Source: an uncultured Bryobacterales bacterium (GTDB lineage: Bacteria > Acidobacteriota > Terriglobia > Bryobacterales > UBA6623). Taken from it: DNA of 42,512 nucleotides. Shown here piece after piece: positions 2,758 to 37,802 of the stretch (within the stretch, counting starts at the first letter, position 1; every line of letters begins with the position of its first letter). Location of the stretch: NCBI GenBank assembly GCA_964405625.1, contig CAYOPA010000001.1, positions 235 through 42,746 on the forward strand. The letters run 5' to 3'. The notes below the pieces were generated by a model, which saw nothing but the letters and a program-made list of their open reading frames with translations, made no database searches and was not told the DNA's origin. The translations under genes were made by a program, and so were the position numbers.

Positions 2758-2777
<20 letters not shown>
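3..2777 (+). CDS. membrane-anchored pentahaem c-type cytochrome with C-terminal TPR domain (5' end probably outside the window)
   Basis: The frame is open from nt 3 with no stop. The first listed start is GTG at 90, but the upstream codons are hydrophobic and GC3-rich, so the gene likely begins upstream of the window. About five hydrophobic TM-like segments come first. Five CxxCH haem c motifs follow (CQPCH, CAGCH, CMSCH, CASCH, CADCH). TPR-like Ala/Leu-rich repeats fill the last approx. 200 aa (AERAFTKVTEAKPDWADGW..., ALELGPDLARGQYFYAL..., AVGYLDRVAAIDPEDL...). Confidence 0.8.
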
Positions 2778-4443
<1,666 letters not shown>

Positions 4444-25954: not shown

Positions 25955-26053
25955 TTGTGGCGCACGGCTATGCCGTGCAGCGAGGCCTGCGGCCCCGCCT
26001 TTGTTTTCGCGCGAGACGGAGCCTCGCGTGCACGGCGCAGCCGTGCGTTACAA
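25955..26053. repeat. nested palindromic intergenic element, family A, copy 2
   Basis: TTGTGGCGCACGGCTATGCCGTGCA (25955-25979) and TGCACGGCGCAGCCGTGCGTTACAA (26029-26053). It has the same arm sequence and the same 99-nt four-hairpin layout as copy 1. The right arm overlaps the last two codons and the TAA of the GMC gene. Confidence 0.75.
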
Positions 26054-27736
26054 ATCCCCGCGCTTGGCCTGATCGAGGATATATTCCGAGGTTTCCAACG
26101 CCATAGCCATCATCGTCAATGTTGGGTTCTGGCACGGCGCGGATGGAAACGAAGCTCCGTCGGTGACAAAAATGTTCTTCACATCGTGAGCCTGACGGTA
26201 GCGGTTCACCACGGATTTCTTAGGGTCATTCCCCATTCGCGCGGTTCCCAGCTCGTGGGTGGCGCCGCCGGGCCAGCGCGGCTCGCCCTGCCGTGTGACC
26301 TCCTTGGCTCCGGCCGCGTGCAGCATCTCCTCGCATTTGTCGAGCATGTGTTTATACAGCTTCATCTCGTTGTCGCCCCACGAGGCGTGGATGTGCAGCG
26401 CGGGAATGCCCCAGGCGTCCTTGACGCCCGGGTCGAGCCGGACGAAGTTGTCGTATTGCGGCAGGCATTCGGCGTAGCCGGTCAGGCGGAAGGTCCAGCA
26501 GTCGTCGCGCTCGGCGACCGCTTTCTTGAAGGTCCGGCCAAATCCGGGCACGCTGGCGATGGCGCCGGGCGAATCGTAGCTGGACCCATGCGAGCCCTGC
26601 AAACCGTAACCGCGCAGGATGCCGTCGGTCATCGGGCGATCCAGGTTCAGGAAGCGCGGGACGTAAATGCCGCCCGGCCGGCGCGGCGGCCCGGACCACT
26701 TGTGCTGCTCCTTCACCGGGATCACGCCGCCGGTAGCACCGGCGATGTGGTCCATCAGGTAGTGGCCCAAGGCGCCCGAAGAGTTGCAAAACCCCTCGCC
26801 TGAGTTGAGCAGCAGGCGCGTGGATTCCAGCGTTGAGGCGCACACGATCACGACCTTGCCCGAAGCTTCACGCGCCGCCCGGGTCGCTGTGTCGATATAG
26901 GCGACGCCGTTGGCCAGTCCGGTATTTGGGTCAGTGGTGATGTGAGAGCAGACCGCGTCGGTCTGAATGGTGCAATTGCCGGACTCTTGGGCGTCGACCA
27001 GCGTGGTCCAGAGGCTGGAGAAGTAGGAATGCGTCACGCAGCCCTGCTCGCACGGGCCGCAGTAATGACAGGCCGAGCGGCCGTTGTGGTCGCGGGTGAT
27101 GATCGCCGGTCGTCCTACAGTGACGGGCAGGCCGAGCTTGGACTCGACGGCCTTCTCAAAGTACTTCTCGCCGCAGTTCATCGCCATCGGCGGCAGGAAT
27201 TCGCCGTCAGGGATCTGCGACAGCCCTTCGGCCATGCCGCTGATGCCGACGTAGCGCTCGACGCGTTTGTAGTAGGGCTCGATGTCGTCGTAGCTGAAGG
27301 GCCAGTCCTCGCCGTAGCCGTCATGGCTGGCCGGCTTGAAGTCCAGCGGACTGAGCCGCCAGCTCAGCCGGCCCCAGGTGAGCGTACGGCCGCCCAAGAT
27401 ACGCCCGCGCGTCCATTGGAAGGGTTTGCCCTTGGGAGTGGTGTAGGGGTTGGCGATGTCGTCGACGAACCACTCGTAGTTGGACTCGCGGCAGGCGTAC
27501 TTCATCGCCTGGATGGGCCGGTTGCGCGCGATCTCGGGTGAGGCGCCGCGGTACTTGAGATCAAACGGCTGGACGTGCTCGGTAAAGTCGCGCTCGGTCA
27601 CGCGCGGGCCGGCTTCGAGCACCAGCGTCTTCATGCCGGCCTCGCTCAGAGTCTTGGCGACCCAGCCGCCGGTGGCGCCGGAGCCGATGATAATGGCGTC
27701 GTAAGTCATGGTTGGGCTCGAGTCCCTGAGGGGCAT
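26048..27736 (-). CDS. GMC-family FAD-dependent oxidoreductase
   Basis: N-terminal FAD fold YDAIIIGSGATGGWVAKTLSEAGMKTLVLEAG. Length 562 aa. C-terminal GMC-type segment HELGTARMG...NIFVTDGASFPS. Alternative start ATG 27709. Confidence 0.85.
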   Translation of the reverse strand: MPLRDSSPTMTYDAIIIGSGATGGWVAKTLSEAGMKTLVLEAGPRVTERDFTEHVQPFDLKYRGASPEIARNRPIQAMKYACRESNYEWFVDDIANPYTTPKGKPFQWTRGRILGGRTLTWGRLSWRLSPLDFKPASHDGYGEDWPFSYDDIEPYYKRVERYVGISGMAEGLSQIPDGEFLPPMAMNCGEKYFEKAVESKLGLPVTVGRPAIITRDHNGRSACHYCGPCEQGCVTHSYFSSLWTTLVDAQESGNCTIQTDAVCSHITTDPNTGLANGVAYIDTATRAAREASGKVVIVCASTLESTRLLLNSGEGFCNSSGALGHYLMDHIAGATGGVIPVKEQHKWSGPPRRPGGIYVPRFLNLDRPMTDGILRGYGLQGSHGSSYDSPGAIASVPGFGRTFKKAVAERDDCWTFRLTGYAECLPQYDNFVRLDPGVKDAWGIPALHIHASWGDNEMKLYKHMLDKCEEMLHAAGAKEVTRQGEPRWPGGATHELGTARMGNDPKKSVVNRYRQAHDVKNIFVTDGASFPSAPCQNPTLTMMAMALETSEYILDQAKRGDL

Positions 27737-27799: not shown

Positions 27800-27805
27800 T
27801 ATAAT
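27800..27805 (+). promoter_or_regulatory. consensus -10 hexamer upstream of the PSCyt gene
   Basis: A perfect TATAAT lies 14 nt upstream of ATG 27820, inside the 83-nt divergent intergenic region. I found no convincing -35. Confidence 0.3.
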
Positions 27806-27819
27806 GCTGTCGGAATCCC

Positions 27820-30621
27820 ATGTTACGCCTGCTTCCCGCTCTCCTTTTATTCGCCATGGCCGTCGGCGCCGCTCCGGCGCCGGAAGATGTCGAATTTTTT
27901 GAGAAGAAAGTACGGCCGATCTTTGCCGCCAAGTGTCAGATGTGCCATAGCGCGCAGATCAAGACGGCGGAGCTTGATCTGTCTTCGGCGGAGGGGTTTG
28001 TACATGGCGGTGCGAGCGGCCCGCTGGTGAACACGGAGAACCCCGCCGAGAGCAGCCTGCTGAAGGTCATCAGCTACGACGAAAAGCTCAAAATGCCGCC
28101 GATGGCGAAGCTGGCGGCTGACGAAATCGCGGCTCTGACCGAGTGGGTGGAGCGCGGCGCTCCATGGCCTGGCGCCGCCGAGGTGGCGGTGATCGAAAAG
28201 AAGGCCGCACAGGTCGCCTTTACCGCCGAGCAGAAGGCTTACTGGGCGTTCCAACCGATCGCCGATCCGGCCCCGCCGTCGGTGAAGGACGCCTCCTGGC
28301 CGCGGTCGCCGGTCGATCAGTTCGTTCTGGCCAAGATCGAAGAAAAGGGCTTGGCGCCGGAACCCGCTGCCGACAAGGCGACGCTGTTGCGCCGCGTCAC
28401 TTTCGATCTGACCGGGCTGCCGCCGACTCCGACTGAGATTGAGGCGTTTCTGGCCGACTCCTCGCCGGACGCCTTTGAGAAGGTCGTCGACCGGCTGCTG
28501 GCCTCGCCGCGCTACGGCGAGCGCTGGGGGCGTCACTGGCTGGACGTGGCGCGCTACGCCGACTCCACCGGCAATGACGAGGACCATCGCTATCCCTACG
28601 CTTGGCGCTATCGCGATTACGTGATCGAGGCGTTCAACAACGACATGCCGTTTGACCGCTTCGTGCGGGAGCAGATCGCCGGCGACCTGATGCCCGCGCC
28701 CCACGGGACCAAGGTCAACCAGCAGGGCGTAGTCGCCACCGGTTTTCTGGCGATCGGCCCCAAGGCGGTGGCGCAGCAGGACAAGACCCGGATGCTCTAC
28801 GACGTCTATGACGAGCAGGTGGACGTGGTCTCCAAGGCGTTTCTGGGCCTTACCGTCTCCTGCGCCCGCTGCCACGACCATAAGTTCGACCCGATCCTCA
28901 CCCGCGACTACTACTCGATGACGGGCTTCTTCGCCGATACCCGCAGCTTCCGCGATCCGTCCACGCACGTCTCGAAGCTGCTCTTCGTGCCGCTGGTGGA
29001 GCAGGAGGAGTGGGCCGAGTACGAGCGGCAGCAAGAAGACATCCGGCGGGCGAAGTTTGAGCTCGAGAACACGCCGGAGATTGAGGTTGAAGAGTGGGTG
29101 ACGCCTTACGTGGAGAGGCTCGCCGACTATATGCTGGCCGCGCGCCGGGTGTATGAGGACGGCGAAACGCTCGACGCAGTCGTCGCCGAAACGAGCCTGG
29201 AGAAGTACGTGCTGGAGCGCTGGGTCAAGTACCTGACGCCGGGTGACGTCGTGCGGGCGCACATGGCGGAATGGGACAAGGCGCCGAAGGCCGAGCGCGC
29301 GGCGGTGGCCGCGAAGTTTGCCGAGAGCATTCAGACCGAGCGGGAAGGGTGGCTGAAGAAGCTCCGCAACTGGCGCAAGCAGGCCAACCGACCGGCGGAA
29401 GAGATCACCATGGGCATCCCGACCAAGCCGAAGTTCGAGCCCGGTCAGAATCGCTTTTTCCACGAAGTGTACATTGCAGGCTCCGGGCCGCTGGCGTTCA
29501 AGTCCAAGGACGATCTCAAGCGCATCCTCAGGCCCGAGACCCAGGAGCTGATCGCCGAGCTCGAACAAAAGGTGGCGGAGCTCGAAGCCGACGCCATGCC
29601 GGAGCCGCCGCGCGCCAATGCGGTGGAGGATAAGCCGGCTAAGGAGCGGGTCGAGCAGCACGTCTTTATTCGCGGCGACTACTCGTCCAAGGGCGAGCCT
29701 GCCCCGAAGGCGTTTCCGGCGATTCTCGCAGGGCTCGACCAGGAGCCGGTGAAGACCGAGGGCAGCGGCCGGTTGGCGCTGGCGGAGTGGATGGGGAGCG
29801 ATCGCAATCCGCTCACCGCCCGCGTGATCGTCAACCGCGTCTGGCAGTGGCATTTCGGCGATGGGCTAGTGCGCACGCCGGACAACTTCGGCCGGATGGG
29901 CGAGGCGCCGACGCATCCGGAGCTGCTCGACTACCTGTCCAGCCGGTTTATCGACGACGGCTGGTCGATCAAGAAGCTCCACAAGCGGATGCTGTTGACT
30001 TCGACCTACCAGATGTCGAGCGCGATCAGCGAATCGAAGGCTCTCACCGACCCGGAAAACCGGCTCTTGAGCCGCTTTAACCGCCGCCGACTCGCCGTGG
30101 AGGAGCTGCGCGACGGGCTGCTCGCGGCGGACGGCTCCATCGACCTGTCGATGGGCGGTACGATGCAGGCGGGCTTTGGCACCGACGGCGAGAACTCCAC
30201 CGATCGGCTGTCGATCAATCCCGACGAGCAGATTCGGCGAACCGTCTACCTTCCGTTGCGGCGCGCGAACTTGCCTGCCTTGCTGAACCTCTATGATTTC
30301 GGCGACGCGACCACCTCGCAGGGCCGCCGCGCCGAAACGAACGTGGCGCCGCAGGCGTTGTACTTGATGAATTCCAAGTTCGTGGCGGACCGCGCGCGCG
30401 GTCTGGCGGACCGCTTGTTGGAGCGTGACGACGAGGCCTCGCGGGTGCGGCAGGCTTACCTGCGAACGCTGAACCGGGCGCCCGACGCCGAAGAGGTTGA
30501 TGTGGGCTTAACCTATATCGCCTCGGTTAAACAGAAGTTCGAGGGCGTGGAGCCTCTGGACGCCTGGCAGAGCTTCTGCCGCATTCTGCTGGCGTCGAAT
30601 GAGTTTATCTACGTGGACTAA
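27820..30621 (+). CDS. PSCyt1/DUF1549/DUF1553-type protein (planctomycete-type cytochrome-motif protein)
   Basis: Signal peptide MLRLLPALLLFAMAVGAAPA. N-terminal FFEKKVRPIFAAKCQMCH (PSCyt1-like). DUF1549-like LLRRVTFDLTGLPPT and RLLASPRYGERWGRHWLDVARYADS. A second haem-like motif, SCARCHDHKFDPI. DUF1553-like C-terminal half (NPLTARVIVNRVWQWHFG, FD..D...S...R..TNVAPQAL.LMNS). Confidence 0.9.
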   Translation: MLRLLPALLLFAMAVGAAPAPEDVEFFEKKVRPIFAAKCQMCHSAQIKTAELDLSSAEGFVHGGASGPLVNTENPAESSLLKVISYDEKLKMPPMAKLAADEIAALTEWVERGAPWPGAAEVAVIEKKAAQVAFTAEQKAYWAFQPIADPAPPSVKDASWPRSPVDQFVLAKIEEKGLAPEPAADKATLLRRVTFDLTGLPPTPTEIEAFLADSSPDAFEKVVDRLLASPRYGERWGRHWLDVARYADSTGNDEDHRYPYAWRYRDYVIEAFNNDMPFDRFVREQIAGDLMPAPHGTKVNQQGVVATGFLAIGPKAVAQQDKTRMLYDVYDEQVDVVSKAFLGLTVSCARCHDHKFDPILTRDYYSMTGFFADTRSFRDPSTHVSKLLFVPLVEQEEWAEYERQQEDIRRAKFELENTPEIEVEEWVTPYVERLADYMLAARRVYEDGETLDAVVAETSLEKYVLERWVKYLTPGDVVRAHMAEWDKAPKAERAAVAAKFAESIQTEREGWLKKLRNWRKQANRPAEEITMGIPTKPKFEPGQNRFFHEVYIAGSGPLAFKSKDDLKRILRPETQELIAELEQKVAELEADAMPEPPRANAVEDKPAKERVEQHVFIRGDYSSKGEPAPKAFPAILAGLDQEPVKTEGSGRLALAEWMGSDRNPLTARVIVNRVWQWHFGDGLVRTPDNFGRMGEAPTHPELLDYLSSRFIDDGWSIKKLHKRMLLTSTYQMSSAISESKALTDPENRLLSRFNRRRLAVEELRDGLLAADGSIDLSMGGTMQAGFGTDGENSTDRLSINPDEQIRRTVYLPLRRANLPALLNLYDFGDATTSQGRRAETNVAPQALYLMNSKFVADRARGLADRLLERDDEASRVRQAYLRTLNRAPDAEEVDVGLTYIASVKQKFEGVEPLDAWQSFCRILLASNEFIYVD

Positions 30622-30625
30622 GACG

Positions 30626-32074
30626 ATGGACCCTAAGCACAACTACAATCACCTGCTCAGCCGCAACTGGTCCAAGCCGATGTCGCGGCGGGCGCTGCTT
30701 CGCGACGGAGCTCTGGGCTTTGGAGCATTGGGCTTGGCCGGGCTGTTGGCCGAGGAATCCCGGGCGGCGCGGGTGAACCCGCTGGAACCGAAGAATCCGC
30801 ACTTCGCGCCCCGCGCCAAACAGGTTATCTTTCTGTTCATGCACGGCGGCCCGTCGTCGATTGACACGTTCGACTTCAAGCCGTACCTGCGAGAGCACGA
30901 TGGCCAGCCTTTGCCGATCAAGCGGCCGCTGGCCTTTGCCGACGACGAGCCGGGTCCGCTGATGCAGAACCAGTGGGAGTTCCGGCCCGGCGGCAAGAGC
31001 GGCATCCCGGTCAGCGATTTGTTTCCGCACGTTCGCGAGCAGGTCGATAACTTGTGCATCATCAAGTCGATGGTCGGCGAGGGCGTCGACCACGGCGCGG
31101 CGATGTTGCAGACCTTCACGGGGTCCTCGACCTTTACCCGGCCGTCGATGGGCGCGTGGACGGTCTATGGGCTGGGCTCGGAAAACCGGGACCTGCCGGG
31201 CTTCATCACCATCAAACCGGCGCTGGCGCACGGCGGAGCGAAGAATTGGTCGGCGGCGTTCCTGCCCGGCGCCTACCAGGGCACCGCGATCGGCCATTCC
31301 GGCATGAAGGTGGAGGATATCCAGGGCGAGCCGATCGAATATCTAGTGAACCAGGGCCTGTCGACCGAGCAGCAGCGCTACGAGCTCGATATGCTCCAGT
31401 CGATCAACCGCCGTCACGCAGCCATGCGCGAGCACGACCCGGACCTGGAAGCCCGCATCGAGGCGTTTGAGCTGGCCTTCCGCATGCAAGTGCAGGCGCC
31501 GGAGGCGTTTGAAGTGGAGCGCGAGCCGGAGTCGGTGAAGAAGCTCTACGGGCTGGACGACCCCAAGACCGCGGACTTCGCCTGGCAGTGCATTCTGGCC
31601 CGTCGGCTGGCTCAGCGCGGCGTGCGCTACGTGCAGTGCACGCACTCGTACAAATGGGACCAGCACTCCGATCTGGTCAACAAGCACACCGAGAACGCTT
31701 ACGAGGTGGACAAGCCGATCGCCGGTCTGCTCGCCGACCTCAAGGCCAACGGCATGCTCGATGACACGCTGGTGATCTGGGCGGGCGAGTTTGGGCGGAC
31801 GCCGGTCTCGCAGGGCGGCGACGGCCGCGATCACAACCCTTACGGCTACACTATTTGGATGGCCGGGGGCGGGACCAAGCCGGCGTTCACCTACGGCGCG
31901 ACCGACGAAATCGGCTACCACGCCGTTGAGGATCGGATGCATATCCACGATTTCCACGCCACCGTGCTGGCGCTGCTCGGCTTTGATCACGAGAAGCTGA
32001 CGTATCATTTTTCGGGCCGTGACTTCCGGCTGACTGACGTGGCCGGCCATGTCCATGAGGCGATCTTTGGGTAG
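30626..32074 (+). CDS. DUF1501 (sulfatase-fold-like) protein with Tat signal
   Basis: Tat signal MSRRALLRDGALGFGALGLAGLLA. Signature segments VIFLFMHGGPSSIDTFDFKP and WAGEFGRTP...GRDHNPYGYTIWMAGGG. The start is 4 nt after the upstream TAA. Confidence 0.9.
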   Translation: MDPKHNYNHLLSRNWSKPMSRRALLRDGALGFGALGLAGLLAEESRAARVNPLEPKNPHFAPRAKQVIFLFMHGGPSSIDTFDFKPYLREHDGQPLPIKRPLAFADDEPGPLMQNQWEFRPGGKSGIPVSDLFPHVREQVDNLCIIKSMVGEGVDHGAAMLQTFTGSSTFTRPSMGAWTVYGLGSENRDLPGFITIKPALAHGGAKNWSAAFLPGAYQGTAIGHSGMKVEDIQGEPIEYLVNQGLSTEQQRYELDMLQSINRRHAAMREHDPDLEARIEAFELAFRMQVQAPEAFEVEREPESVKKLYGLDDPKTADFAWQCILARRLAQRGVRYVQCTHSYKWDQHSDLVNKHTENAYEVDKPIAGLLADLKANGMLDDTLVIWAGEFGRTPVSQGGDGRDHNPYGYTIWMAGGGTKPAFTYGATDEIGYHAVEDRMHIHDFHATVLALLGFDHEKLTYHFSGRDFRLTDVAGHVHEAIFG

Positions 32075-32972
32075 GGCCGTAAGGCTCCTATTGCTGGGCG
32101 TCGCCGTTGTGGCGGTTGCGTTCGCGGCGCTGCCGCAGTTGCGTTTCAGAGCCGCCCTTTGGGGCGACGCAGTCGCGGGCGGCGAGGGGAGCCCCACGTT
32201 TCGGACGGCGCTCATCGAGACCGCTCCCTACCGTTACCAGAACCGCGTCCGGCGCTGGATCGGCCCACAACCGCCACAGGTTTTTATGCCGCTCCTCCCG
32301 CCCGACCCCTCGGAGGCCGAAGGGCCCGGTCCGCTGGTTGGCCGCAAGATCCTGACTGAAACCGTCTGGTCGGCTGAATTTTTGAACATCCACTACAGCC
32401 GCTTGGAAGCGGGCGAGCTCGCTCATGACGTGCACCGACATGACGATGAGGAGATCCTGGTGCCAATTTCAGGGGATGTGGAGATTCTGGGAGACATGCC
32501 GGCCGAGCGCCTCGGCCCGGGGTCGATGACCTACTACTCCGCGCAGCACCCGCACACGATTCGCGCCCTGGGGCCGGAGGCGGCGACGTACATCATGTGG
32601 CGGTGGAGCAACAGCAAAGCGAGGCCGGAGCCGCATCTGGAGCCCGGGATTTTTGACTTTCGCCGCGAGCTGGAAGAGGCTCGGGAGAAGGGTGCGGCCG
32701 GTGAAAGCGTGAAAGGCGAGGTGTTTGCCGGTGGAACTCGCTGGCTGACCTACTTGCACGCCCATCTCAGGACCCTGCCGGCAGGGGGCCGGATTCCGGC
32801 GCACGAAGACGACCACGACGCCATCCTGGTGCTCTTCAACGGTAAACTGGAGACACAGGGCGCCACGCTGGACGGGCCCGCCATCTCTTTCAATCCGGCC
32901 TTTGCCGAACATGGGATGTACAATCCAGGCCCGGAGCCGGCGCAATACCTTGCTGTGGATATGACCCCTTAA
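32049..32972 (+). CDS. membrane-anchored bicupin, paralog 1 (uncharacterised)
   Basis: N-terminal TM anchor LLLLGVAVVAVAFAAL. Cupin 1 has the metal motif HDVHRHDDEEILVPISGDVEI...HPHTIRA. Cupin 2 has IPAHEDDHDAILVLFNGKLE...FAEHGMYNPG. The start (ATG 32049 or 32055) overlaps the end of the DUF1501 gene. Confidence 0.7.
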   Translation: MSMRRSLGRAVRLLLLGVAVVAVAFAALPQLRFRAALWGDAVAGGEGSPTFRTALIETAPYRYQNRVRRWIGPQPPQVFMPLLPPDPSEAEGPGPLVGRKILTETVWSAEFLNIHYSRLEAGELAHDVHRHDDEEILVPISGDVEILGDMPAERLGPGSMTYYSAQHPHTIRALGPEAATYIMWRWSNSKARPEPHLEPGIFDFRRELEEAREKGAAGESVKGEVFAGGTRWLTYLHAHLRTLPAGGRIPAHEDDHDAILVLFNGKLETQGATLDGPAISFNPAFAEHGMYNPGPEPAQYLAVDMTP

Positions 32973-32993
32973 CTCACCGTTCGAAAAGACAAC

Positions 32994-33911
32994 ATGCGAA
33001 AGGGTTATTGGCAATATAGAGGTCTCCTAGCGCTGCTGGTGGTAGTGGCCGCCGTCGCCGTGGTCCCGGCCTTGCGATCGCGCGCCGAGCTTTGGCTGGG
33101 GGCCGCGGTCGGCGGGCCGGACGGCCCAACGTTTCGGACCGCCGCGATCGAGTCCGCTCCCTACCGCTACCAGGCGCAGCTTCGGCGTTCCTGGGGGCCG
33201 GAGGTGGAGCCGGTTACCAGCCTGCTGCCGATGCCCGGCCCGCCCAAGCCCGGCGCCCCCTGGCCGCTGCGCAAGCACATTTTGCTTTCACAAACGGTCT
33301 GGTCGGTTGACTTCTTAAACATCCACTACAGCCGGTTGGAGGAAGGCGGGCTGGCGCACGAGGTCCACCAGCATGACGACGAAGAGATGCTGATCCCGAT
33401 CTCGGGCGAAGTCGAGATCATGGGCGGCCAGCAGGCCGACCGCGTCGCTCCCGGGACGATTGCGCTCTACTACGCCGCCCAGGACCCTCACACGATCAAG
33501 GCCCTCGGACCCGGCCCCTCGACGTACTTGGCGTGGCGTTGGAAGGGTTCGGGAGGCGACCCGGAGGGCAAGCAGAAGGGCAGGATGCACGATCTCCGCC
33601 CGCTGCTGGCCGACGGGCTGGAGAAGGCTAAGGCGGGGGAGAGCGTGAAGGTCACCCTGCAGGACGGCGAGACCCGTTGGCTGGGCAGGCTGCATGTTCA
33701 GTTGCAGAGCCTGCCGGCGGGGGACTCCATTCCGGTCCGTACGGATACCCACGATGGCGTCTTAGTGCTGCTTAGCGGGACGATCGAGACCCAGGGCGAA
33801 ACGCTGACAGCGCCGGCGGTGGCGTTCAATCCCGCGTTCGCCGCACACGGCGTCCGTAATACGGGGCCGGAGCCGGCGCAGTATCTGGCCGTGGATATGT
33901 CGCCGCGATAG
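32994..33911 (+). CDS. membrane-anchored bicupin, paralog 2 (uncharacterised)
   Basis: Collinear with paralog 1 along its whole length; roughly half or more of residues look identical by eye. Shared blocks include GPTFRTAAIESAPYRYQ, TVWSVDFLNIHYSRLEEGGLAHEVHQHDDEEMLIPISGEVEI, DPHTIKALGP, and FNPAFAAHGVRNTGPEPAQYLAVDM. Confidence 0.7.
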   Translation: MRKGYWQYRGLLALLVVVAAVAVVPALRSRAELWLGAAVGGPDGPTFRTAAIESAPYRYQAQLRRSWGPEVEPVTSLLPMPGPPKPGAPWPLRKHILLSQTVWSVDFLNIHYSRLEEGGLAHEVHQHDDEEMLIPISGEVEIMGGQQADRVAPGTIALYYAAQDPHTIKALGPGPSTYLAWRWKGSGGDPEGKQKGRMHDLRPLLADGLEKAKAGESVKVTLQDGETRWLGRLHVQLQSLPAGDSIPVRTDTHDGVLVLLSGTIETQGETLTAPAVAFNPAFAAHGVRNTGPEPAQYLAVDMSPR

Positions 33912-33929
33912 GCGAGTCGGCTCGAAGGC

Positions 33930-33952
33930 CGCCTCCGCCGAGGCGATTTTCT
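33930..33952 (+). terminator. intrinsic terminator closing the PSCyt-DUF1501-bicupin unit
   Basis: CGCCTC-CGCC-GAGGCG, followed by ATTTTCTT, 19 nt after the bicupin-2 stop. It abuts the 3' end of the antisense tRNA-Cys. Confidence 0.6.
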
Positions 33953-34027
33953 TGGAGGCGCGGGCCGGACTCGAACCGGCGAGTAAAGGCTTTGCAAGCC
34001 TCTGCCTTACCGCTTGGCTACCACGCC
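33953..34027 (-). tRNA. tRNA-Cys(GCA): tRNA-Cys (anticodon GCA)
   Basis: Minus-strand cloverleaf: acceptor GGCGTGG/CCGCGCC (one G-U pair), D arm GCC-AAGCGGTAA-GGC, anticodon arm GAGGC-TTGCAAA-GCCTT, variable TACTC, T arm GCCGG-TTCGAGT-CCGGC. The discriminator is U, the known Cys identity element, and CCA is encoded. 75 nt. Confidence 0.92.
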
Positions 34028-34054
34028 GTAAGTCATACTATACGAACAATCGTG

Positions 34055-36460
34055 ATGAAAGCGCCGGTAGCGAACCTTGCGCTCCTGCTCCTGACGGCCG
34101 GTGCGTTGCAAGCGGATTCCTTTGAACAGTCCTTTGAGCGGACAGTGCGGCCCGTGCTCGAGCGCCGCTGCGTGATGTGCCACGGCGAGGCCCTCGCTCA
34201 GGCCAACGTTCGCCTCGACAATCTTTCGATTGATTTGATCGAGGATCGGCGGGCCGGCGAGACGTGGCATGACGTGCTCAACGCCCTCAATCGCGGCGAG
34301 ATGCCTCCCAAGGGCGCCCCTGGCTTGACCGTGGACGAGCGCGCCGCCGTGGTCGATTGGCTGACCGCCGAGCTTGCCAAAGCCGCCAAGGCCCGTCGCG
34401 CCAATGGCGGCCAGGTCGTGATGCGCCGGCTCAACCGCGTGGAATACCAGAACACCATGCGGGATCTGCTCGGCCTGGATGTGGACTATGTGCGCAACCT
34501 GCCTCCCGATGAGATGAGTCGGGACGGGTTCGCCAACAATGGGGCGGCGCTGCGGATCTCGGCCCTCCAGCTTGAATACTACTTGCGTGCGGCGCGCAGC
34601 GGGCTGGCGCGGGCGATTGTGGAAGGCCCGGCGCCGCCGGTGTTCACGCACAAGTCGCAAGAGACCGTCATCGACAAGGTCAACGACATCCACTGGTCCA
34701 ACCGCCTGGGCCGCACAGGGATTTTTGTAGCGCGAATGGCCGATTTCCCCGACGAGGGCGAGTTTGAGGTCCGCATCAGAGCCCGCGCCGTGTTGCCCGC
34801 TCCTGATTCGCCGTACCCGCGGATGCGCGTGCATCTCGGCTACAGGGCCGACACGGAGACGCCTCGGGGCCAAGTCGGCGCCGTGGATGTGCGCAGCGAG
34901 AAGCCGGAAGAGTTTGTGTTTCGCGGACGCATCGACGAGTTTCCGGTCCAGAGCCGCACACAGTCGAAGTATCCGGGAATGCTCGTCTGGGCGGACAATG
35001 TCTATTCCGACGGCAAGCCCGCTCCGGTAGGGCGCAAGATCACTGAAGAGGTTGACGGCAAGAAGGTCATCCGCTGGGAGTGGGACGAGGACCCAGAGTT
35101 TCCGTCGATCGTGGTGGAGTCGTTTGAGTTTCGCGCTCCCCTTTATTTGACTTGGCCGCCGCAGCATCACCGCGAGCTGATTCCCGAAACGCCGGGTTCG
35201 GCGGTCGCGGAGCCGGCCGCCGTCCACAAGGCGCTGCGCGGCTTTTTGGGCAGAGCCTACCGACGGCCGGTCGAGGAGGCTGACATCGCAACCTCGATGC
35301 GCTTCTTTGAGCGCATTCGCCCAACCGTTCCCACCTTTGAGCGGGCGATGCGCGAGGTTTACGCGATGGCGCTGGTCTCGCCGGATTTCCTGTATCGGGT
35401 GGAGGACGGTGCGCCGGGCGGCGACCAGATTGGCGACCACGAGCTCGCCTCGCGCCTGTCGTACTTCCTGTGGAGCACGATGCCGGACGAGCGGCTGCGC
35501 AAGTTGGCCGACGAGGGACGCCTGCGCGACCCGGCGACGCTGGCGTCCGAGGCCGAACGGCTGCTGGACGATCCGCGCTCGTGGTCGTTCATTAGGCAGT
35601 TCGCCGATCAGTGGCTGGACTTGGCGGGCGTGGACCGCGTCGCGGTCAACCCGAATTACTATCCGAGCTTCGATGAAGCGCTCAAGGCGGAGATGCGGCG
35701 CGAGACGCAGCATTTCTTTGGCGAGGTCCTGCGCCAGGGCCTGAGCGCGCTGAGCTTCCTGCGGACCGATTTTGCGATGCTCAACCAACCCCTGGCGGCC
35801 CACTACGGCGTCAAAGGCCCTCGGGGCGGGGAGTTTGAGCGGGTGTCGCTGAAGCCCGGCGACAGGCCCGGGGGCTTGTTGGGGCAGGGGAGCGTCCTGC
35901 TGGCGAATTCGACCGGGGAAGACTCGCATCCGATCGAGCGCGGCGTGTGGATTCGCCGGGCGCTGTTCAACGACCCGCCGGCGCCGCCGCCTCCGGCCGT
36001 GCCAAACCTGGACTCCAGCGAAGACGCCGCTTTGCTGCCGCTCAAGCGCCAGTTGGAGCTGCACCGCGACAACGCCGCTTGCGCCCATTGCCACCAGGGC
36101 ATCGATCCGTGGGGCATCGCGCTGGAGGAGATGGACGCCGTGGGCTTGATTCGCGCGACGATTCTGCGCCAAGCGGGCGACCGCGAGGAGCGCCATCCCG
36201 TCGACGCGGCCACGGTGCTGCCGGACGGCAAGCCCGTCAACGGCGTGCGCGAGCTGGCGGACTACCTGCACGCCCACAAGGACCGCGAGTTTGCCCGCGC
36301 GCTGGCGGCCAAGCTGCTGACGTATGCGCTGGGTCGGTCGCTGGAGTTTTCCGACGACGAAACGGTCGATGAGCTGACGGCGCGGTTTGTTGCGGATGGG
36401 TATCGATTGCGGGGTCTGGTTATAATGATTGCCACCAGCGAGCCTTTCCGGGGGCGCTAG
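34055..36460 (+). CDS. DUF1585/1587/1588/1592/1595-type protein (PSD/PSCyt3 architecture) with two CxxCH motifs
   Basis: Signal peptide MKAPVANLALLLLTAGALQA. N-terminal RPVLERRCVMCHGE. DUF1587-like VMRRLNRVEYQNTMRDLLGLD. DUF1588-like FLRTDFAMLNQPLAAHYGV. DUF1585-like CAHCHQGIDPWGIALEEMDAVG. The listed start at 33992 would overlap tRNA-Cys, so I trimmed to ATG 34055. Confidence 0.85.
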   Translation: MKAPVANLALLLLTAGALQADSFEQSFERTVRPVLERRCVMCHGEALAQANVRLDNLSIDLIEDRRAGETWHDVLNALNRGEMPPKGAPGLTVDERAAVVDWLTAELAKAAKARRANGGQVVMRRLNRVEYQNTMRDLLGLDVDYVRNLPPDEMSRDGFANNGAALRISALQLEYYLRAARSGLARAIVEGPAPPVFTHKSQETVIDKVNDIHWSNRLGRTGIFVARMADFPDEGEFEVRIRARAVLPAPDSPYPRMRVHLGYRADTETPRGQVGAVDVRSEKPEEFVFRGRIDEFPVQSRTQSKYPGMLVWADNVYSDGKPAPVGRKITEEVDGKKVIRWEWDEDPEFPSIVVESFEFRAPLYLTWPPQHHRELIPETPGSAVAEPAAVHKALRGFLGRAYRRPVEEADIATSMRFFERIRPTVPTFERAMREVYAMALVSPDFLYRVEDGAPGGDQIGDHELASRLSYFLWSTMPDERLRKLADEGRLRDPATLASEAERLLDDPRSWSFIRQFADQWLDLAGVDRVAVNPNYYPSFDEALKAEMRRETQHFFGEVLRQGLSALSFLRTDFAMLNQPLAAHYGVKGPRGGEFERVSLKPGDRPGGLLGQGSVLLANSTGEDSHPIERGVWIRRALFNDPPAPPPPAVPNLDSSEDAALLPLKRQLELHRDNAACAHCHQGIDPWGIALEEMDAVGLIRATILRQAGDREERHPVDAATVLPDGKPVNGVRELADYLHAHKDREFARALAAKLLTYALGRSLEFSDDETVDELTARFVADGYRLRGLVIMIATSEPFRGR

Positions 36461-36473
36461 GAGCAGATGAGTT

Positions 36474-37802
36474 TTGGCAAAGTCGTGGACCCTGAATCGT
36501 AGAACCTTCCTGCATGGGACCGGGGTGTCGTTGGCGCTGCCGTTCCTGGAAGCGATGGCGGGCGAAACAAAGCCTGTCCAGCCCAAGCGGTTTTGCGCCA
36601 TTTACTTCCCCTACGGCATCGTGGCGCGCGGCGAGGATTCGCCGGTGGCGCAGTGGAACTGGTTCCCGCAGGGGCAGGGACGCGATTTCCGATTCGGCCC
36701 GAGCCTGAAGGCGCTGGAGCCCCTGCGCCAGGATCTTACGATACTTGGCGGCCTGTCGCACCCCAAGGGCCGCAAGATGGGCGGGCACGACACGGCTGAC
36801 AACTGGCTGACCTCCACCGAGCTCAAAGCCGGCCACCTGGATAACACGGTTTCGCTCGATCAGGTTCTGGCGCAACGCTTTGGCGAGCAGACGCGCTATT
36901 CGTCGCTCGTGATTTCGACCGACGGCGGCGTGGGAGAGCCGACCCGTTCGAGCACGCTGTCGTTTAGTCGGACTGGTCAGCCGATCCCAGCCGAGCGCCA
37001 GCCGCGGCTGATCTTTGAGAGGCTGTTCGGCGCGAATTCCGCCTCGATGGCGGCGCAGCGGCAGGAGCTCAACAACTCGGCCAGTATGTTGGATCTGGTT
37101 TTGGAGCAATCCAACGCGTTGCGCGGCCGGCTGGGCAAAGTCGATCAGCAAAAGCTCGATGAGTACCTGAGCTCGGTGCGGCAGATTGAGCAGCGTGTGG
37201 AGCGCGCCGAACGCTGGCTGGATGTTCCCAAGCCCTCCGTGGACGCTTCCGGGCTTCACCTGGAGGCCGACGACACCACGCCGCGCGAGCTGATCCGGAC
37301 GATGTACGACCTGATCTATCTGGCCTTCCAGACGGATTCGACGCGCTTGGCCACCTACCAGCTCGGCAACATGAACGGGGCGACCTCGATTGCCGGCAAG
37401 TTCCCGCAACTGCTGGGCCTGGCGGATACCATGCACACGCTGGCGCACGACGCTCGCAAGGGCGACGCCGGCGCCGAGCCGCTGGGACGCTGGACGATGT
37501 TCCTGACCGAGCAGCTCGCCTACTTCATCCAGCGGCTGCGGGATACGCCGGACGGCGACGGCTCGCTGCTGGACTCGACGGCGGTGCTCTACGGCAGCAG
37601 CAATAGCCAGACCCATGTGAACGAGGACTACCCGCTGGCGCTGGCCGGCGGGCGGGCGCTGGGCTTCAACCACGGGCGCTACCTGCGCTTTGGCGAAGAG
37701 GTCCCGTTGTCAAACCTGTTCGTGACGTTGCTCGACCGGCTGGGCGCCCGCGAAGAGTCCTTTGGGGACAGCACCGGCGAGCTGACCGACGTCTTGGTCT
37801 GA
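36474..37802 (+). CDS. DUF1552 protein with Tat-like signal
   Basis: N-terminus LNRRTFLHGTGVSLALPFLEAMA is typical of DUF1552. GGLSHPKGRKMGGHDTADNWLT segment. TTG start, with AGGAG 10 nt upstream. This is the expected partner of the upstream DUF1592-type gene. Confidence 0.85.
   Translation: MAKSWTLNRRTFLHGTGVSLALPFLEAMAGETKPVQPKRFCAIYFPYGIVARGEDSPVAQWNWFPQGQGRDFRFGPSLKALEPLRQDLTILGGLSHPKGRKMGGHDTADNWLTSTELKAGHLDNTVSLDQVLAQRFGEQTRYSSLVISTDGGVGEPTRSSTLSFSRTGQPIPAERQPRLIFERLFGANSASMAAQRQELNNSASMLDLVLEQSNALRGRLGKVDQQKLDEYLSSVRQIEQRVERAERWLDVPKPSVDASGLHLEADDTTPRELIRTMYDLIYLAFQTDSTRLATYQLGNMNGATSIAGKFPQLLGLADTMHTLAHDARKGDAGAEPLGRWTMFLTEQLAYFIQRLRDTPDGDGSLLDSTAVLYGSSNSQTHVNEDYPLALAGGRALGFNHGRYLRFGEEVPLSNLFVTLLDRLGAREESFGDSTGELTDVLV

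What the first reader, a model, noticed from the sequence alone, without database searches (positions are those of the whole stretch)
27820..37802. Two different PVC-type haem-motif/Tat-protein gene pairs sit back to back around twin bicupins
Seen in the sequence: 27820-30621 encodes a signal-peptide protein with CQMCH near the N-terminus and CARCHDHKFDP internally (PSCyt1/DUF1549/DUF1553 layout). A Tat-signal DUF1501 protein starts 4 nt later. Its last 26 nt overlap the start of the first of two paralogous membrane-anchored bicupins. A hairpin plus T-tract (33930-33952) closes this four-gene unit. After an antisense tRNA-Cys comes the second pair. It consists of a CVMCH...CAHCHQGIDPWG protein of the DUF1585/1587/1588/1592/1595 type and a Tat-signal DUF1552 protein. 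Established knowledge: both pair types are heavily amplified, biochemically unassigned families of Planctomycetes, Verrucomicrobia and Solibacter-like Acidobacteria. Inference: both pair types are adjacent, and one is operonically coupled to metal-type cupins. This suggests a composite periplasmic redox or hydrolytic module, with the cupins as the catalytic or substrate-conditioning part. I know of no described function for this combination.
Basis: partly seen in the sequence, partly recalled or inferred. Interest (0 to 1): 0.7.

Follow-up and report, generated by a model that had tools for sequence, protein, structure and literature searches.

The report
Cupin add-on to a DUF1501 operon
A small group of soil Acidobacteria has attached one or two fast-evolving, membrane-anchored metal-binding cupin genes to a very conserved gene pair of unknown function. 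The second such pair next door is a chance neighbour found in only one species.

Summary
The sequence observation is correct.

1. The two pairs are not a unit. Their adjacency occurs only in the window and a ~98%-identical MAG contig. In six other cupin-bearing lineages, similarity to the window stops right after the cupins.

2. The cupin link to DUF1501 is real but narrow. In all eight lineages whose context was read, the cupin directly follows this one DUF1501 ortholog. It overlaps the DUF1501 stop by 8-38 nt in seven of them; the eighth assembly is frameshifted. The flanking genes differ among lineages. It is absent from 79 of 80 other orthologous acidobacterial loci, and from the next-closest orthologs (85-86% identity).

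3. The cupins accumulate amino-acid changes about 7-10 times faster than DUF1501, but remain under purifying selection and keep an intact His3-Glu site.

4. More distant relatives with the same build sit before PMT_2-type membrane glycosyltransferases, or are fused to PhyH dioxygenases. None of the 32 such loci examined is near a DUF1501 gene.

Best reading: a clade-specific accessory periplasmic metalloenzyme, recruited from a glycan-related setting into a known but uncharacterised PSCyt/DUF1501 operon. It is a new variant of a known kind, of modest interest.

The parts
26048..27736 (-). GMC-family FAD oxidoreductase, transcribed divergently from g1 across an 83-nt spacer. Context gene only; probably not part of the unit.
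   Evidence: Pfam GMC_oxred_N and GMC_oxred_C. Present at this position in L088, L001, L003, L004 and L086. Absent in L005 and in the cupin-less orthologous loci L093 and L094.
27800..27805 (+). TATAAT hexamer that ends 14 nt before the g1 ATG. A possible -10 box; not validated.
   Evidence: Read directly from the sequence. The promoter scan found no full sigma-70 match.
27820..30621 (+). g1: Sec-signal protein of 933 aa with an N-terminal mono-haem cytochrome c domain (PSCyt1, CQMCH), then PSCyt2/DUF1549 (CARCHDHKFDP) and PSD1/DUF1553.
   Evidence: Pfam; motifs and hydropathy. A homologous gene (45-84% identity) lies upstream of DUF1501 in 70 of 80 acidobacterial loci and in L001, L003 and L004; 933-935-aa genes with the same domains were called in L088, L093 and L094.
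30626..32074 (+). g2: Tat-signal (SRRALL) DUF1501 protein of 482 aa, probably with an alkaline-phosphatase-superfamily fold. It starts after a 4-nt spacer behind the g1 stop.
   Evidence: Pfam DUF1501 2.5e-143 and a weak Sulfatase match at 1.8e-4. Profile against PDB: endo-4-O-sulfatase 6s21, E 0.01. Foldseek top hits are all sulfatases, LtaS, YejM or iPGM, but the model is poor. dN/dS is about 0.04.
32049..32972 (+). g3: A-type bicupin of 307 aa. It has an N-terminal hydrophobic anchor, a conserved juxtamembrane helix (PYRYQxRxRR), a Pro-rich linker, an N-terminal barrel with an intact HxHx3E...H site, and a degenerate C-terminal barrel. It overlaps the g2 stop by 26 nt.
32994..33911 (+). g4: B-type bicupin paralogue of 305 aa, 56% identical to g3.
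33930..33952 (+). Terminator-like hairpin (CGCCTC CGCC GAGGCG) followed by ATTTTCTT. It marks the likely end of the four-gene unit.
33953..34027 (-). tRNA-Cys(GCA). It lies at the point where similarity to related genomes ends.
   Evidence: ARAGORN; Rfam, 63.6 bits. No tRNA-Cys is found in L001 or L003-L006. Similarity ends here.
34055..36460 (+). g5: signal-peptide protein of 801 aa with PSCyt1 (CVMCH), PSD3, PSD5, PSD4, PSCyt3 (CAHCHQGIDPWG) and PSD2. A neighbour, not part of the cupin unit.
   Evidence: Pfam. It shares only the cytochrome c domain with g1. It is adjacent to the cupins only in the window and L088.
36474..37802 (+). g6: Tat-signal (NRRTFL) DUF1552/HXXSHH protein of 442 aa with a TTG start. 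It is the partner of g5.
   Evidence: Pfam 1.1e-81; junction. No detectable relation to DUF1501 (hhalign probability 0.1%).

Best explanation
The region holds two separate operons of an uncultured Acidobacteriota bacterium. Its closest DUF1501 matches are mostly Bryobacterales MAGs.

Operon 1 (27820-33911) is a widespread and very conserved acidobacterial gene pair. One gene encodes a Sec-exported haem-c/DUF1549/DUF1553 protein. The other encodes a Tat-exported DUF1501 protein, probably an alkaline-phosphatase-superfamily metalloenzyme. In one small clade this pair acquired a membrane-anchored, periplasm-facing bicupin gene, joined to the DUF1501 stop codon by a short overlap. The bicupin gene was later duplicated.

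The bicupin has one intact mononuclear metal site (His3-Glu) in its first barrel. Its family otherwise sits immediately upstream of PMT_2/GT-C membrane glycosyltransferases, or is fused to PhyH dioxygenases beside GT2/GT4 genes.

The most likely role, which is inference only, is this. The bicupin is an accessory metalloenzyme working at the outer face of the inner membrane. It modifies or conditions a sugar-type or glycoconjugate substrate or product of the DUF1501 enzyme. The haem protein acts as a binding and/or electron-transfer partner.

Operon 2 (34055-37802; a PSCyt3-type protein plus DUF1552) is an unrelated paralogous system. A species-specific rearrangement at tRNA-Cys placed it beside operon 1.

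Shown: the gene content, the linkage pattern, the clade restriction, the rate difference, the fold and the metal motif. Inferred: export topology, co-transcription, any physical or metabolic coupling, and the substrate class.
For: - Domains and motifs.
- Linkage: the cupin directly follows DUF1501 on the same strand in all eight lineages examined. These are the window with L088/L089, L001/L002, L003, L004, L005, L086, L090 and L091/L092. The overlap is 8-38 nt in seven; L086 is a frameshifted assembly with a called gap of about 210 nt.
- Flanks vary. Downstream genes are a DAO-type oxidoreductase; DUF2277 then DAO and peptidase M19; a ketoacyl synthase and a UDP-glycosyltransferase; a methyltransferase and an AP_endonuc_2 protein; or tRNA-Cys and the second pair. 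Upstream genes are GMC or a beta-lactamase-fold protein.
- Clade restriction: among the 80 best orthologous loci in species-representative genomes, only L005 has the cupin. Orthologs at 85-86% identity lack it.
- Rates for the same genome pairs: dN is 0.04-0.05 for g2, 0.12-0.14 for g1 and 0.31-0.42 for the cupins. Cupin dN/dS is 0.2-0.35, still below 1.
- The metal ligands H126, H129, H131, E134, E135 and H169 are invariant, including in relatives only 24-34% identical.
- Bicupin fold: model pLDDT 74; Foldseek E about 1e-11 to Gip, BacB, OxdC, MncA and quercetinase.
- Family context: relatives with the same build lie 4 nt upstream of, or overlapping, a roughly 650-aa PMT_2 gene in eight loci. 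None of the 30 loci L095-L124 has a DUF1501 or PSCyt2 hit by tblastn, and neither L085 nor L087 has a called DUF1501 gene. PhyH fusions lie beside GT4 genes and other sugar-related genes.
- Literature links PSCyt/DUF1501 genes to carbohydrate-binding modules and sulfatases (PMC5615132, PMC3542564) and DUF1501 to chitin-synthase operons (PMC5122149).
- Second pair: adjacent only in the window and L088. Similarity to other relatives ends at about 33.9 kb.
Against: - There is no transcript, protein or biochemical data.
- The cupin clade is narrow (DUF1501 at least 90% identical), so part of the conserved linkage may simply reflect recent common ancestry.
- The roughly tenfold faster protein evolution of the cupins argues against a tight, co-evolving complex with DUF1501.
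- The DUF1501 model is poor (pLDDT 55) and its alkaline-phosphatase-superfamily matches are weak (E 1e-3 to 1e-2, TM-score 0.2-0.3). Its catalytic residues are not identified.
- The carbohydrate idea rests on guilt by association, using distant relatives (24-34% identity) and literature context.
- Haem and metal binding are untested.
- dS is saturated (about 1 or more), so the dN/dS values are rough.
Confidence: 0.55

Rival explanations
1. Both haem-motif/Tat-protein pairs and the twin bicupins form one composite periplasmic redox or hydrolytic module, with the cupins as its catalytic or substrate-conditioning centre.
For: All six genes are on the same strand within 10 kb, and all products are predicted to be exported. 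The same arrangement is seen in L088. A DUF1552 gene lies about 3 kb from the unit in L086.
Against: - L088 is the same species (97-99% protein identity), so it is not independent evidence.
- In six other lineages the second pair is absent, and similarity stops right after the cupins.
- The DUF1552 gene in L086 is only 31% identical to g6 and lies on the opposite side of the unit.
- None of the 80 orthologous loci has a g5- or g6-like gene within 6 kb.
- A hairpin with a T-tract and an antisense tRNA separate the two units.
- These pair families are highly amplified; R. baltica has 41 copies of each domain (PMC2754498). Chance adjacency is therefore expected now and then.
Confidence: 0.05
2. 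The cupins are functionally unrelated passengers. A bicupin gene from a glycosyltransferase-linked family landed behind a strongly expressed, conserved operon. It is kept there for expression only, and perhaps acts on envelope glycans independently of g1 and g2.
For: - The cupin is absent from 79 of 80 orthologous loci and from the 85-86% identical orthologs.
- Protein evolution is 7-10 times faster than in DUF1501.
- The wider family is linked to PMT_2 or PhyH genes, never to DUF1501.
- Reciprocal loss of the A and B copies suggests either copy is dispensable.
Against: - The stop/start overlap with DUF1501 has been kept in seven of eight lineages through several flank rearrangements. This includes L005, where both flanks differ.
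- No member of this cupin clade was found anywhere else.
- The cupins are under purifying selection and keep their metal ligands.
Confidence: 0.25
3. The bicupin is not an enzyme. It is a periplasmic metal-binding or metal-buffering protein, comparable to MncA or CucA, that supplies or sequesters the metal needed by the Tat-exported DUF1501 enzyme or the haem protein.
For: MncA (PDB 2vqa) is among the Foldseek hits. The His3-Glu site is invariant while most of the surface evolves quickly. The second barrel is degenerate. The cupins have no Tat motif, so they would fold and take up metal in the periplasm.
Against: - Similarity to MncA is generic (12% identity, TM-score about 0.4) and no better than to enzymatic bicupins.
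- DUF1501 has a Tat signal, so it would normally be loaded with its cofactor in the cytoplasm. The 79 cupin-less orthologous loci evidently manage without such a helper.
- Relatives linked to glycosyltransferases or fused to PhyH point to enzymatic chemistry.
Confidence: 0.1

Closest known systems
PSCyt1/PSCyt2/PSD1 (DUF1549/DUF1553) with DUF1501 gene module of Planctomycetes, Verrucomicrobia and some Acidobacteria (Kamneva et al. 2012, PMC3542564; He et al. 2017, PMC5615132). The original domain definition by Studholme et al. 2004 is cited there and was not read here.
   Same: The domain architecture of g1 is the same. The Tat-signal DUF1501 gene lies immediately downstream. Both products are predicted to be exported. 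The function is still unknown.
   Different: A membrane-anchored bicupin gene, in one or two copies, overlaps the DUF1501 stop. The variants listed by Kamneva et al. include carbohydrate-binding domains (Laminin_G_3, F5_F8_type_C) and a four-gene cluster with a weak PPC-domain protein; the paper does not mention a cupin anywhere. The organism is an acidobacterium, and this particular ortholog is unusually conserved (70-90% identity).
PSCyt3-type (DUF1585/1587/1588/1592/1595) with DUF1552 gene pair (He et al. 2017, PMC5615132)
   Same: g5 and g6 show the canonical architecture: the full domain set, a CxxCH motif in PSCyt3, and a Tat-signal DUF1552 gene 13 nt downstream.
   Different: Nothing is unusual in the pair itself. 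Its position next to the other pair is specific to one species.
Membrane-anchored bicupins upstream of PMT_2/GT-C glycosyltransferases. This is an uncharacterised family identified here (P0136, P0138-P0142, P0144, P0147, P0152 and P0175; loci L095-L103).
   Same: The build is the same: transmembrane helix, conserved juxtamembrane helix, linker and bicupin, about 300 aa in all. The ligands H-x2-H-x-H-x2-EE...H are invariant. A C-terminal-barrel His (H288) and its partly conserved acidic motif are shared. Identity to g3 is 24-34% over the full length.
   Different: The partner gene is a roughly 650-aa PMT_2-like glycosyltransferase downstream, not a DUF1501 gene upstream. No DUF1501 or PSCyt genes are nearby.
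Structurally characterised bicupins: Gip (1sq4), BacB (3h7y), (S)-ureidoglycine aminohydrolase (4e2q), AerE (5zbe), oxalate decarboxylase OxdC, MncA (2vqa) and quercetinase YxaG
   Same: Two-barrel cupin fold (Foldseek E about 1e-11, TM-score 0.4-0.7). Canonical cupin motif 1, HxHx3Ex6G, with a motif 2 His in the first barrel.
   Different: Only 8-16% identity, and no specific subfamily stands out. The second barrel lacks the metal motif. The N-terminal membrane anchor and juxtamembrane module have no counterpart in these structures.
Alkaline-phosphatase superfamily (S1 sulfatases, LtaS, YejM/PbgA, iPGM), as the fold class of DUF1501
   Same: There is weak sequence similarity across the sulfatase 'GL..T.VIF.SDHG' region. 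All the top Foldseek hits are members of this superfamily. Several His/Asp clusters are invariant.
   Different: The sulfatase DHG motif reads EFGR in DUF1501. No CxPxR or SxPxR formylglycine motif is present. Neither the nucleophile nor the metal ligands are identified. The model confidence is low.

Membership tests
PSCyt1-PSCyt2(DUF1549)-PSD1(DUF1553) proteins | Pfam PF07635, PF07583 and PF07587 all score above their gathering thresholds, in this order. | tested here: met
   g1 scores 35.6, 296.9 and 282.8 bits against cut-offs of 22, 29.8 and 28.5.
PSCyt1-PSCyt2(DUF1549)-PSD1(DUF1553) proteins | CxxCH motifs in PSCyt1 and PSCyt2, plus an N-terminal export signal. | tested here: met
   CQMCH at residue 39 and CARCH at 348. 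The hydrophobic N-terminus is MLRLLPALLLFAMAVGAAPA. Cytochrome_CBB3 also matches, at E 2.2e-6.
PSCyt1-PSCyt2(DUF1549)-PSD1(DUF1553) proteins | Covalent haem binding. | not testable with these tools
   This needs haem staining or mass spectrometry of the expressed protein.
DUF1501 (PF07394) | A full-length Pfam match above the gathering threshold. | tested here: met
   478.4 bits against a cut-off of 27, covering profile positions 1-389 of 390.
DUF1501 (PF07394) | A twin-arginine signal, and a position immediately downstream of a PSCyt2/PSD1 gene. | tested here: met
   SRRALL at residues 20-25. A 4-nt spacer follows the g1 stop. The same order is seen in 70 of 80 orthologous loci.
Alkaline-phosphatase superfamily (as the fold of DUF1501) | The alpha/beta core of the superfamily, with a metal-binding Asp/His site and a nucleophile. 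| tested here: inconclusive
   Pfam Sulfatase scores E 1.8e-4, below its cut-off. Sulfatase 6s21 scores E 0.01. Every top Foldseek hit is a member of the superfamily, but with E 1e-3 to 1e-2 and TM-scores of 0.2-0.3, on a model with pLDDT 55. The nucleophile is not identified.
PSCyt3-type proteins (DUF1587/1595/1592/1588/1585) | Pfam PSD3, PSD5, PSD4, PSCyt3 and PSD2 all score above their gathering thresholds. | tested here: met
   g5 scores 79.4, 57.7, 150.2, 94 and 78.7 bits, all above the cut-offs. PSCyt1 scores 28.6 bits.
DUF1552 / HXXSHH (PF07586) | A Pfam match above the gathering threshold, a Tat signal, and a position downstream of a PSCyt3 gene. | tested here: met
   275.2 bits against a cut-off of 30. 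NRRTFL motif. The start lies 13 nt after the g5 stop.
Cupin superfamily, bicupin architecture | Two beta-barrel cupin domains in one chain. | tested here: met
   The AlphaFold2 model shows barrels at residues 101-186 and 200-304. Foldseek aligns 212-228 columns to known bicupins at E about 1e-11. Pfam Cupin_2 is above its cut-off. A profile search of PDB sequences hits both halves.
Cupin superfamily, metal-binding type | Motif 1, G(x)5HxH(x)3-4E(x)6G, and the motif 2 His. | tested here: met
   The N-terminal barrel reads H129-R-H131-DDE-E135-ILVPIS-G142, with H169 in motif 2. All are invariant in 17 sequences that go down to 24% identity. The C-terminal barrel lacks motif 1. Actual metal content is untested.
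   The adjacency occurs only in the window and in L088, which is the same species. It is absent in L001, L003, L004, L005, L090 and L091 and in all 80 orthologous loci.
DUF1501-linked bicupin (the unit proposed here) | The cupin lies immediately downstream of the DUF1501 ortholog wherever the cupin clade occurs. | tested here: met
   This holds in 8 of 8 lineages whose context was read, with overlaps of 8-38 nt in seven; L086 is a frameshifted assembly.
DUF1501-linked bicupin (the unit proposed here) | Co-transcription and physical or functional interaction with g1 or g2. | not testable with these tools
   This needs RNA-seq or RT-PCR, pull-downs or AlphaFold-Multimer, and mutants.
MncA-type Tat-exported periplasmic bicupin | A twin-arginine signal on the cupin. 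| tested here: not met
   The first 60 residues of g3 and g4 contain no RR motif. A strongly hydrophobic anchor is present instead.

The most novel reading that the evidence does not exclude
The bicupin is a true third subunit or coupled enzyme of this DUF1549/1553-DUF1501 system. Its evolutionary origin, in a family wired to polyprenyl-phosphate-dependent GT-C glycosyltransferases and to PhyH dioxygenases, would then indicate that the enigmatic, massively amplified PSCyt/DUF1501 systems act on membrane-proximal glycans or glycolipids. This small acidobacterial clade would offer a tractable way into their biochemistry.
Probability: 0.2. Interest if true: 0.6.

Novelty: new variant of a known kind. 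Interest (0 to 1): 0.35.

Why it matters
The DUF1549/1553-DUF1501 and DUF158x/159x-DUF1552 pairs are among the most amplified gene families of unknown function in Planctomycetes, Verrucomicrobia and Acidobacteria. R. baltica alone has 41 copies of each domain. No biochemical activity has been assigned to them in more than 20 years.

An accessory gene with a recognisable catalytic fold, tightly joined to one highly conserved ortholog, offers a small but concrete handle. Expressing g1, g2 and the cupin together could test for a complex and a metal. The family's link to glycosyltransferases also suggests a substrate class to try.

The result also corrects the tempting idea that the two pair types cooperate. 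Here their adjacency is a rearrangement accident, so it should not be used as functional evidence.

Tried and rejected
- NCBIfam gave no hits for any of the six proteins.
- Sequence searches of the PDB with single DUF1501 and DUF1552 sequences found nothing meaningful.
- The first genome-contig scan, with the cupin profile, found nothing because the peptide patterns were too strict. It missed L005, which was recovered later through the DUF1501 scan.
- The DUF1501 AlphaFold2 model was poor (pLDDT 55) because only homologs at least 72% identical could be supplied. Its Foldseek result is therefore only suggestive.
- hhalign found no relation between DUF1501 and DUF1552.
- A combined alignment of near and distant cupins was too divergent for a metagenome scan. 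The distant set alone worked.
- Rfam found only the two tRNAs, with no riboswitch or leader. The repeat search showed only the g3/g4 paralogy, and no island-type direct repeats around tRNA-Cys.
- GMC oxidoreductase was considered as a conserved partner and rejected. It is absent next to the unit in L005 and in the cupin-less outgroup loci L093 and L094.
- A regulatory or anti-sigma role for the anchored cupin was considered and rejected, because only about 10 residues would face the cytoplasm.
- Literature searches for any functional assignment of DUF1501, DUF1549, DUF1553 or DUF1552, or for a cupin linked to these pairs, found none.

Full report
OBSERVATION

Pfam confirms every domain call.

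- g1 (27820-30621, 933 aa): PSCyt1, PSCyt2/DUF1549 (E 1.2e-88) and PSD1/DUF1553 (E 2.8e-84).
- g2 (30626-32074, 482 aa): DUF1501 (E 2.5e-143).
- g3 (32049-32972) and g4 (32994-33911): Cupin_2.
- g5 (34055-36460): PSCyt1, PSD3, PSD5, PSD4, PSCyt3 and PSD2.
- g6 (36474-37802): DUF1552/HXXSHH (E 1.1e-81).

NCBIfam names none of them. The CxxCH motifs, the Tat motifs (SRRALL in g2, NRRTFL in g6) and the strongly hydrophobic N-termini of the cupins were verified. So were the gene junctions: a 4-nt spacer between g1 and g2, a 26-nt overlap between g2 and g3, a 21-nt spacer between g3 and g4, and a TTG start for g6 13 nt after the g5 stop. The hairpin with its T-tract lies at 33930-33952 and the antisense tRNA-Cys at 33953-34027. 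The only correction concerns g5. The mechanical ORF that starts at 33992 overlaps the tRNA, and the real start is the ATG at 34055.

THE CUPINS

g3 and g4 are 56% identical. An AlphaFold2 model of g3 (pLDDT 74) has these parts:

- a long N-terminal helix (transmembrane plus juxtamembrane);
- a disordered proline-rich linker;
- two beta-barrels.

Foldseek matches bicupins in general at E about 1e-11 and 8-16% identity: Gip, BacB, ureidoglycine aminohydrolase, AerE, OxdC, MncA and quercetinase. No subfamily stands out.

The first barrel carries the canonical HxH(x)3E(x)6G motif plus the motif 2 His. These residues (H126, H129, H131, E134, E135, H169) are invariant. The second barrel lacks the motif.

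WHO CARRIES THIS, AND WHERE

The closest DUF1501 relatives come from Acidobacteriota MAGs, mostly Bryobacterales, Blastocatellia and Terriglobia.

The cupin clade itself is tiny. Eleven 90%-identity clusters were found among 5.8 billion, and three 50%-identity clusters among 1.84 billion representatives.

The genomic context was read for eight lineages: the window with L088/L089, L001/L002, L003, L004, L005, L086, L090 and L091/L092. In every one the cupin directly follows the same DUF1501 ortholog on the same strand. It overlaps the DUF1501 stop by 8-38 nt in seven of them. The eighth, L086, is a low-coverage, frameshifted assembly in which the two genes are called about 210 nt apart.

The flanks differ among these lineages.

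- Downstream: a DAO-type oxidoreductase; or DUF2277, DAO and peptidase M19; or a ketoacyl synthase and a UDP-glycosyltransferase; or a methyltransferase and an AP_endonuc_2 barrel; or, in the window, tRNA-Cys and the second pair.
- Upstream: a GMC oxidoreductase in most lineages, but a beta-lactamase-fold gene in L005.

The pair without the cupin is widespread. More than 592 relatives of g2 were found in species-representative genomes. The 80 best are 70-90% identical to g2, and 70 of them have a g1-like gene upstream. Only one of the 80 (L005, 90% identical) has the cupin. Orthologs at 85-86% identity lack it too (L093 and L094). In those loci the gene that follows DUF1501 varies. The cupin is therefore a single, recent acquisition by a clade in which DUF1501 is at least 90% identical.

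A neighbour-joining tree places the g3/g4 duplication after the split from L005. Reciprocal loss followed. L090 kept the A type; L003, L004 and L091 kept the B type; only the window's species and L001 kept both. Bootstrap support is 70% and 87%.

EVOLUTIONARY RATES

For the same genome pairs, dN is 0.04-0.05 for g2, 0.12-0.14 for g1 and 0.31-0.42 for the cupins. The corresponding dN/dS values are about 0.04, about 0.13 and 0.2-0.35. dS is near saturation, so the ratios are rough. The cupins are real genes under selection, but far less constrained than their partners.

THE SECOND PAIR

g5 and g6 form a textbook PSCyt3-type/DUF1552 pair. They are adjacent to the cupins only in the window and in L088, a contig of the same species (97-99% protein identity).

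In L001, L003, L004, L005, L090 and L091, all similarity to the window stops at about 33.9 kb, exactly at the hairpin and tRNA-Cys. None of L001 or L003-L006 has a tRNA-Cys there. L086 has a DUF1552 gene nearby, but it lies upstream and is only 31% identical to g6, so it is a different paralogue.

g1 and g5 share only the roughly 85-residue cytochrome c domain. g2 and g6 are unrelated at the profile level. The back-to-back arrangement is therefore a species-specific rearrangement that joined two members of highly amplified families. It is not a module.

WHERE THE CUPIN CAME FROM

A full HMMER search found 857 relatives at E no greater than 1e-3.

The next tier consists of about eleven clusters of proteins 299-319 aa long and 24-34% identical to g3. 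They have the same build (anchor, juxtamembrane helix, linker, bicupin) and the same invariant ligands. In eight loci (L095-L100, L102, L103) such a gene lies 4 nt upstream of, or overlaps, a roughly 650-aa PMT_2-type (GT-C) membrane glycosyltransferase. A GT2 or GT4 gene is sometimes nearby.

A further tier consists of PhyH-bicupin fusion proteins. L085 has a GT4 gene next door; L087 has ATP-grasp and PhyH genes beside it and a GT4 gene a few kb away.

None of these loci carries DUF1501 or PSCyt2. The 30 loci L095-L124 were checked by tblastn, and L085 and L087 by their Pfam gene tables. The DUF1501 linkage is thus a derived recruitment.

WHAT DUF1501 IS

DUF1501 has no close relative among solved structures. 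There are weak, mutually consistent hints of an alkaline-phosphatase-superfamily fold.

- Pfam Sulfatase matches at E 1.8e-4.
- The profile matches sulfatase 6s21 at E 0.01, over the 'GL..T.VIF.SDHG' region. This region reads 'GMLDDTLVIWAGEFGR' in g2.
- All the top Foldseek hits are sulfatases, LtaS, YejM/PbgA or iPGM. The model is poor, though (pLDDT 55; E 1e-3 to 1e-2).
- Several His/Asp clusters are invariant.

LITERATURE

The PSCyt/DUF1501 module and the two pair types are described, and their function is explicitly stated to be unknown (PMC3542564, PMC5615132, PMC2754498). Those papers note carbohydrate-binding modules in some PSCyt proteins and frequent sulfatase genes nearby. In Proteobacteria, DUF1501 also occurs with DUF1800 beside bacterial chitin-synthase and sugar-epimerase genes (PMC5122149). 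No paper in the library mentions a cupin in this setting.

MECHANISM (INFERENCE)

All four products of operon 1 are predicted to face the periplasm. g1 uses a Sec signal, g2 a Tat signal, and g3 and g4 a signal anchor.

The most economical reading has three parts. A conserved haem-c scaffold works with an alkaline-phosphatase-like metalloenzyme on a periplasmic ester or glycan substrate. In one clade, a membrane-tethered mononuclear-metal bicupin acts as an accessory on the substrate or product. That bicupin comes from a family that otherwise works alongside lipid-linked-sugar glycosyltransferases. Because it would be exported unfolded, it would acquire its metal in the periplasm.

Its fast evolution, and the fact that one of the two copies has repeatedly been lost, argue that it is peripheral rather than the catalytic core.

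Rivals are a mere expression passenger (confidence about 0.25), a metal-handling protein (about 0.1) and the original six-gene composite (about 0.05).

VERDICT

This is a new, narrowly distributed variant of a known but uncharacterised system. Interest is 0.35. It is useful mainly as an experimental handle, and as a caution against reading function into the adjacency of amplified paralogues.

Noticed in passing
window 30626-32074; loci L005-L084: This DUF1501 ortholog is unusually conserved. The 80 best of more than 592 relatives in species-representative genomes are 70-90% identical across several acidobacterial classes, and dN/dS is about 0.04. Its partner g1 is only 45-84% identical. This suggests a core, strongly constrained enzymatic role for this one paralogue among many.
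   Followed up: partly
L095:1731-4533; L097-L100, L102, L103 (cupin, then a gene of about 650 aa): An uncharacterised family of membrane-anchored bicupins about 300 aa long (24-34% identical to g3). It lies 4 nt upstream of, or overlaps, a PMT_2/GT-C-type membrane glycosyltransferase in eight metagenomic loci, with variable upstream genes. This conserved gene pair did not turn up in the literature searches run here.
   Followed up: partly
L085:8001-9653; L087:5362-6852; L108:1283-3409; L109:3423-5114: Fusion proteins of 496-708 aa, with a PhyH (Fe/2-oxoglutarate dioxygenase) domain followed by the same bicupin module. One is from the planctomycete Neorhodopirellula lusitana. L085 has a GT4 gene next door; L087 has ATP-grasp and PhyH genes beside it and a GT4 gene a few kb away. 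The neighbours of L108 and L109 were not examined.
   Followed up: partly
L059:8042-8938; L078:7495-8802; L017:6155-7069: In the cupin-less orthologous loci, the gene after DUF1501 is a COX15/CtaA-like protein in about 10 loci and a GlcF-like CCG/4Fe-4S protein in 11 loci. A Tat-signal AP_endonuc_2 TIM-barrel protein recurs a few kb downstream. No single third partner is conserved.
   Followed up: partly
window 32049-33911 compared with L001, L003, L004, L090, L091, L005: The cupin duplication predates the split of most of the clade and was followed by reciprocal loss of the A or B copy. The cupins accumulate amino-acid changes 7-10 times faster than the overlapping DUF1501 gene.
   Followed up: yes
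window 27800-27819 and 34028-34054: A perfect TATAAT ends 14 nt before the g1 ATG. The g5 ATG is only 27 nt from the 5' end of the antisense tRNA-Cys, so any g5 promoter must overlap the tRNA gene. Very short leaders are therefore possible for both operons.
   Followed up: no
L019, L021, L023, L040, L046, L054: Contigs from MAGs labelled Heliobacteriaceae, Heliomicrobium, Gammaproteobacteria or Aminicenantes carry copies of this acidobacterial DUF1501 that are 72-75% identical overall (up to 78% over the best segment). These are probably mis-binned or mislabelled contigs.
   Followed up: no
window 90-4443: An 895-aa protein with multihaem cytochrome signatures (Cytochrome_C554, c7 and MtrC-like) plus TPR repeats overlaps the start of a 561-aa FG-GAP/ASPIC-UnbV protein. 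This may be an extracellular electron-transfer or adhesion pair, unrelated to the finding.
   Followed up: no
L086 (ENA ERZ2606016, NODE_2172, coverage 2.4): In this low-coverage assembly of a clade member, the GMC, DUF1501 and cupin genes are each split by frameshifts. Its gene calls (226-aa cupin, 448-aa DUF1501) are artefactually short.
   Followed up: yes
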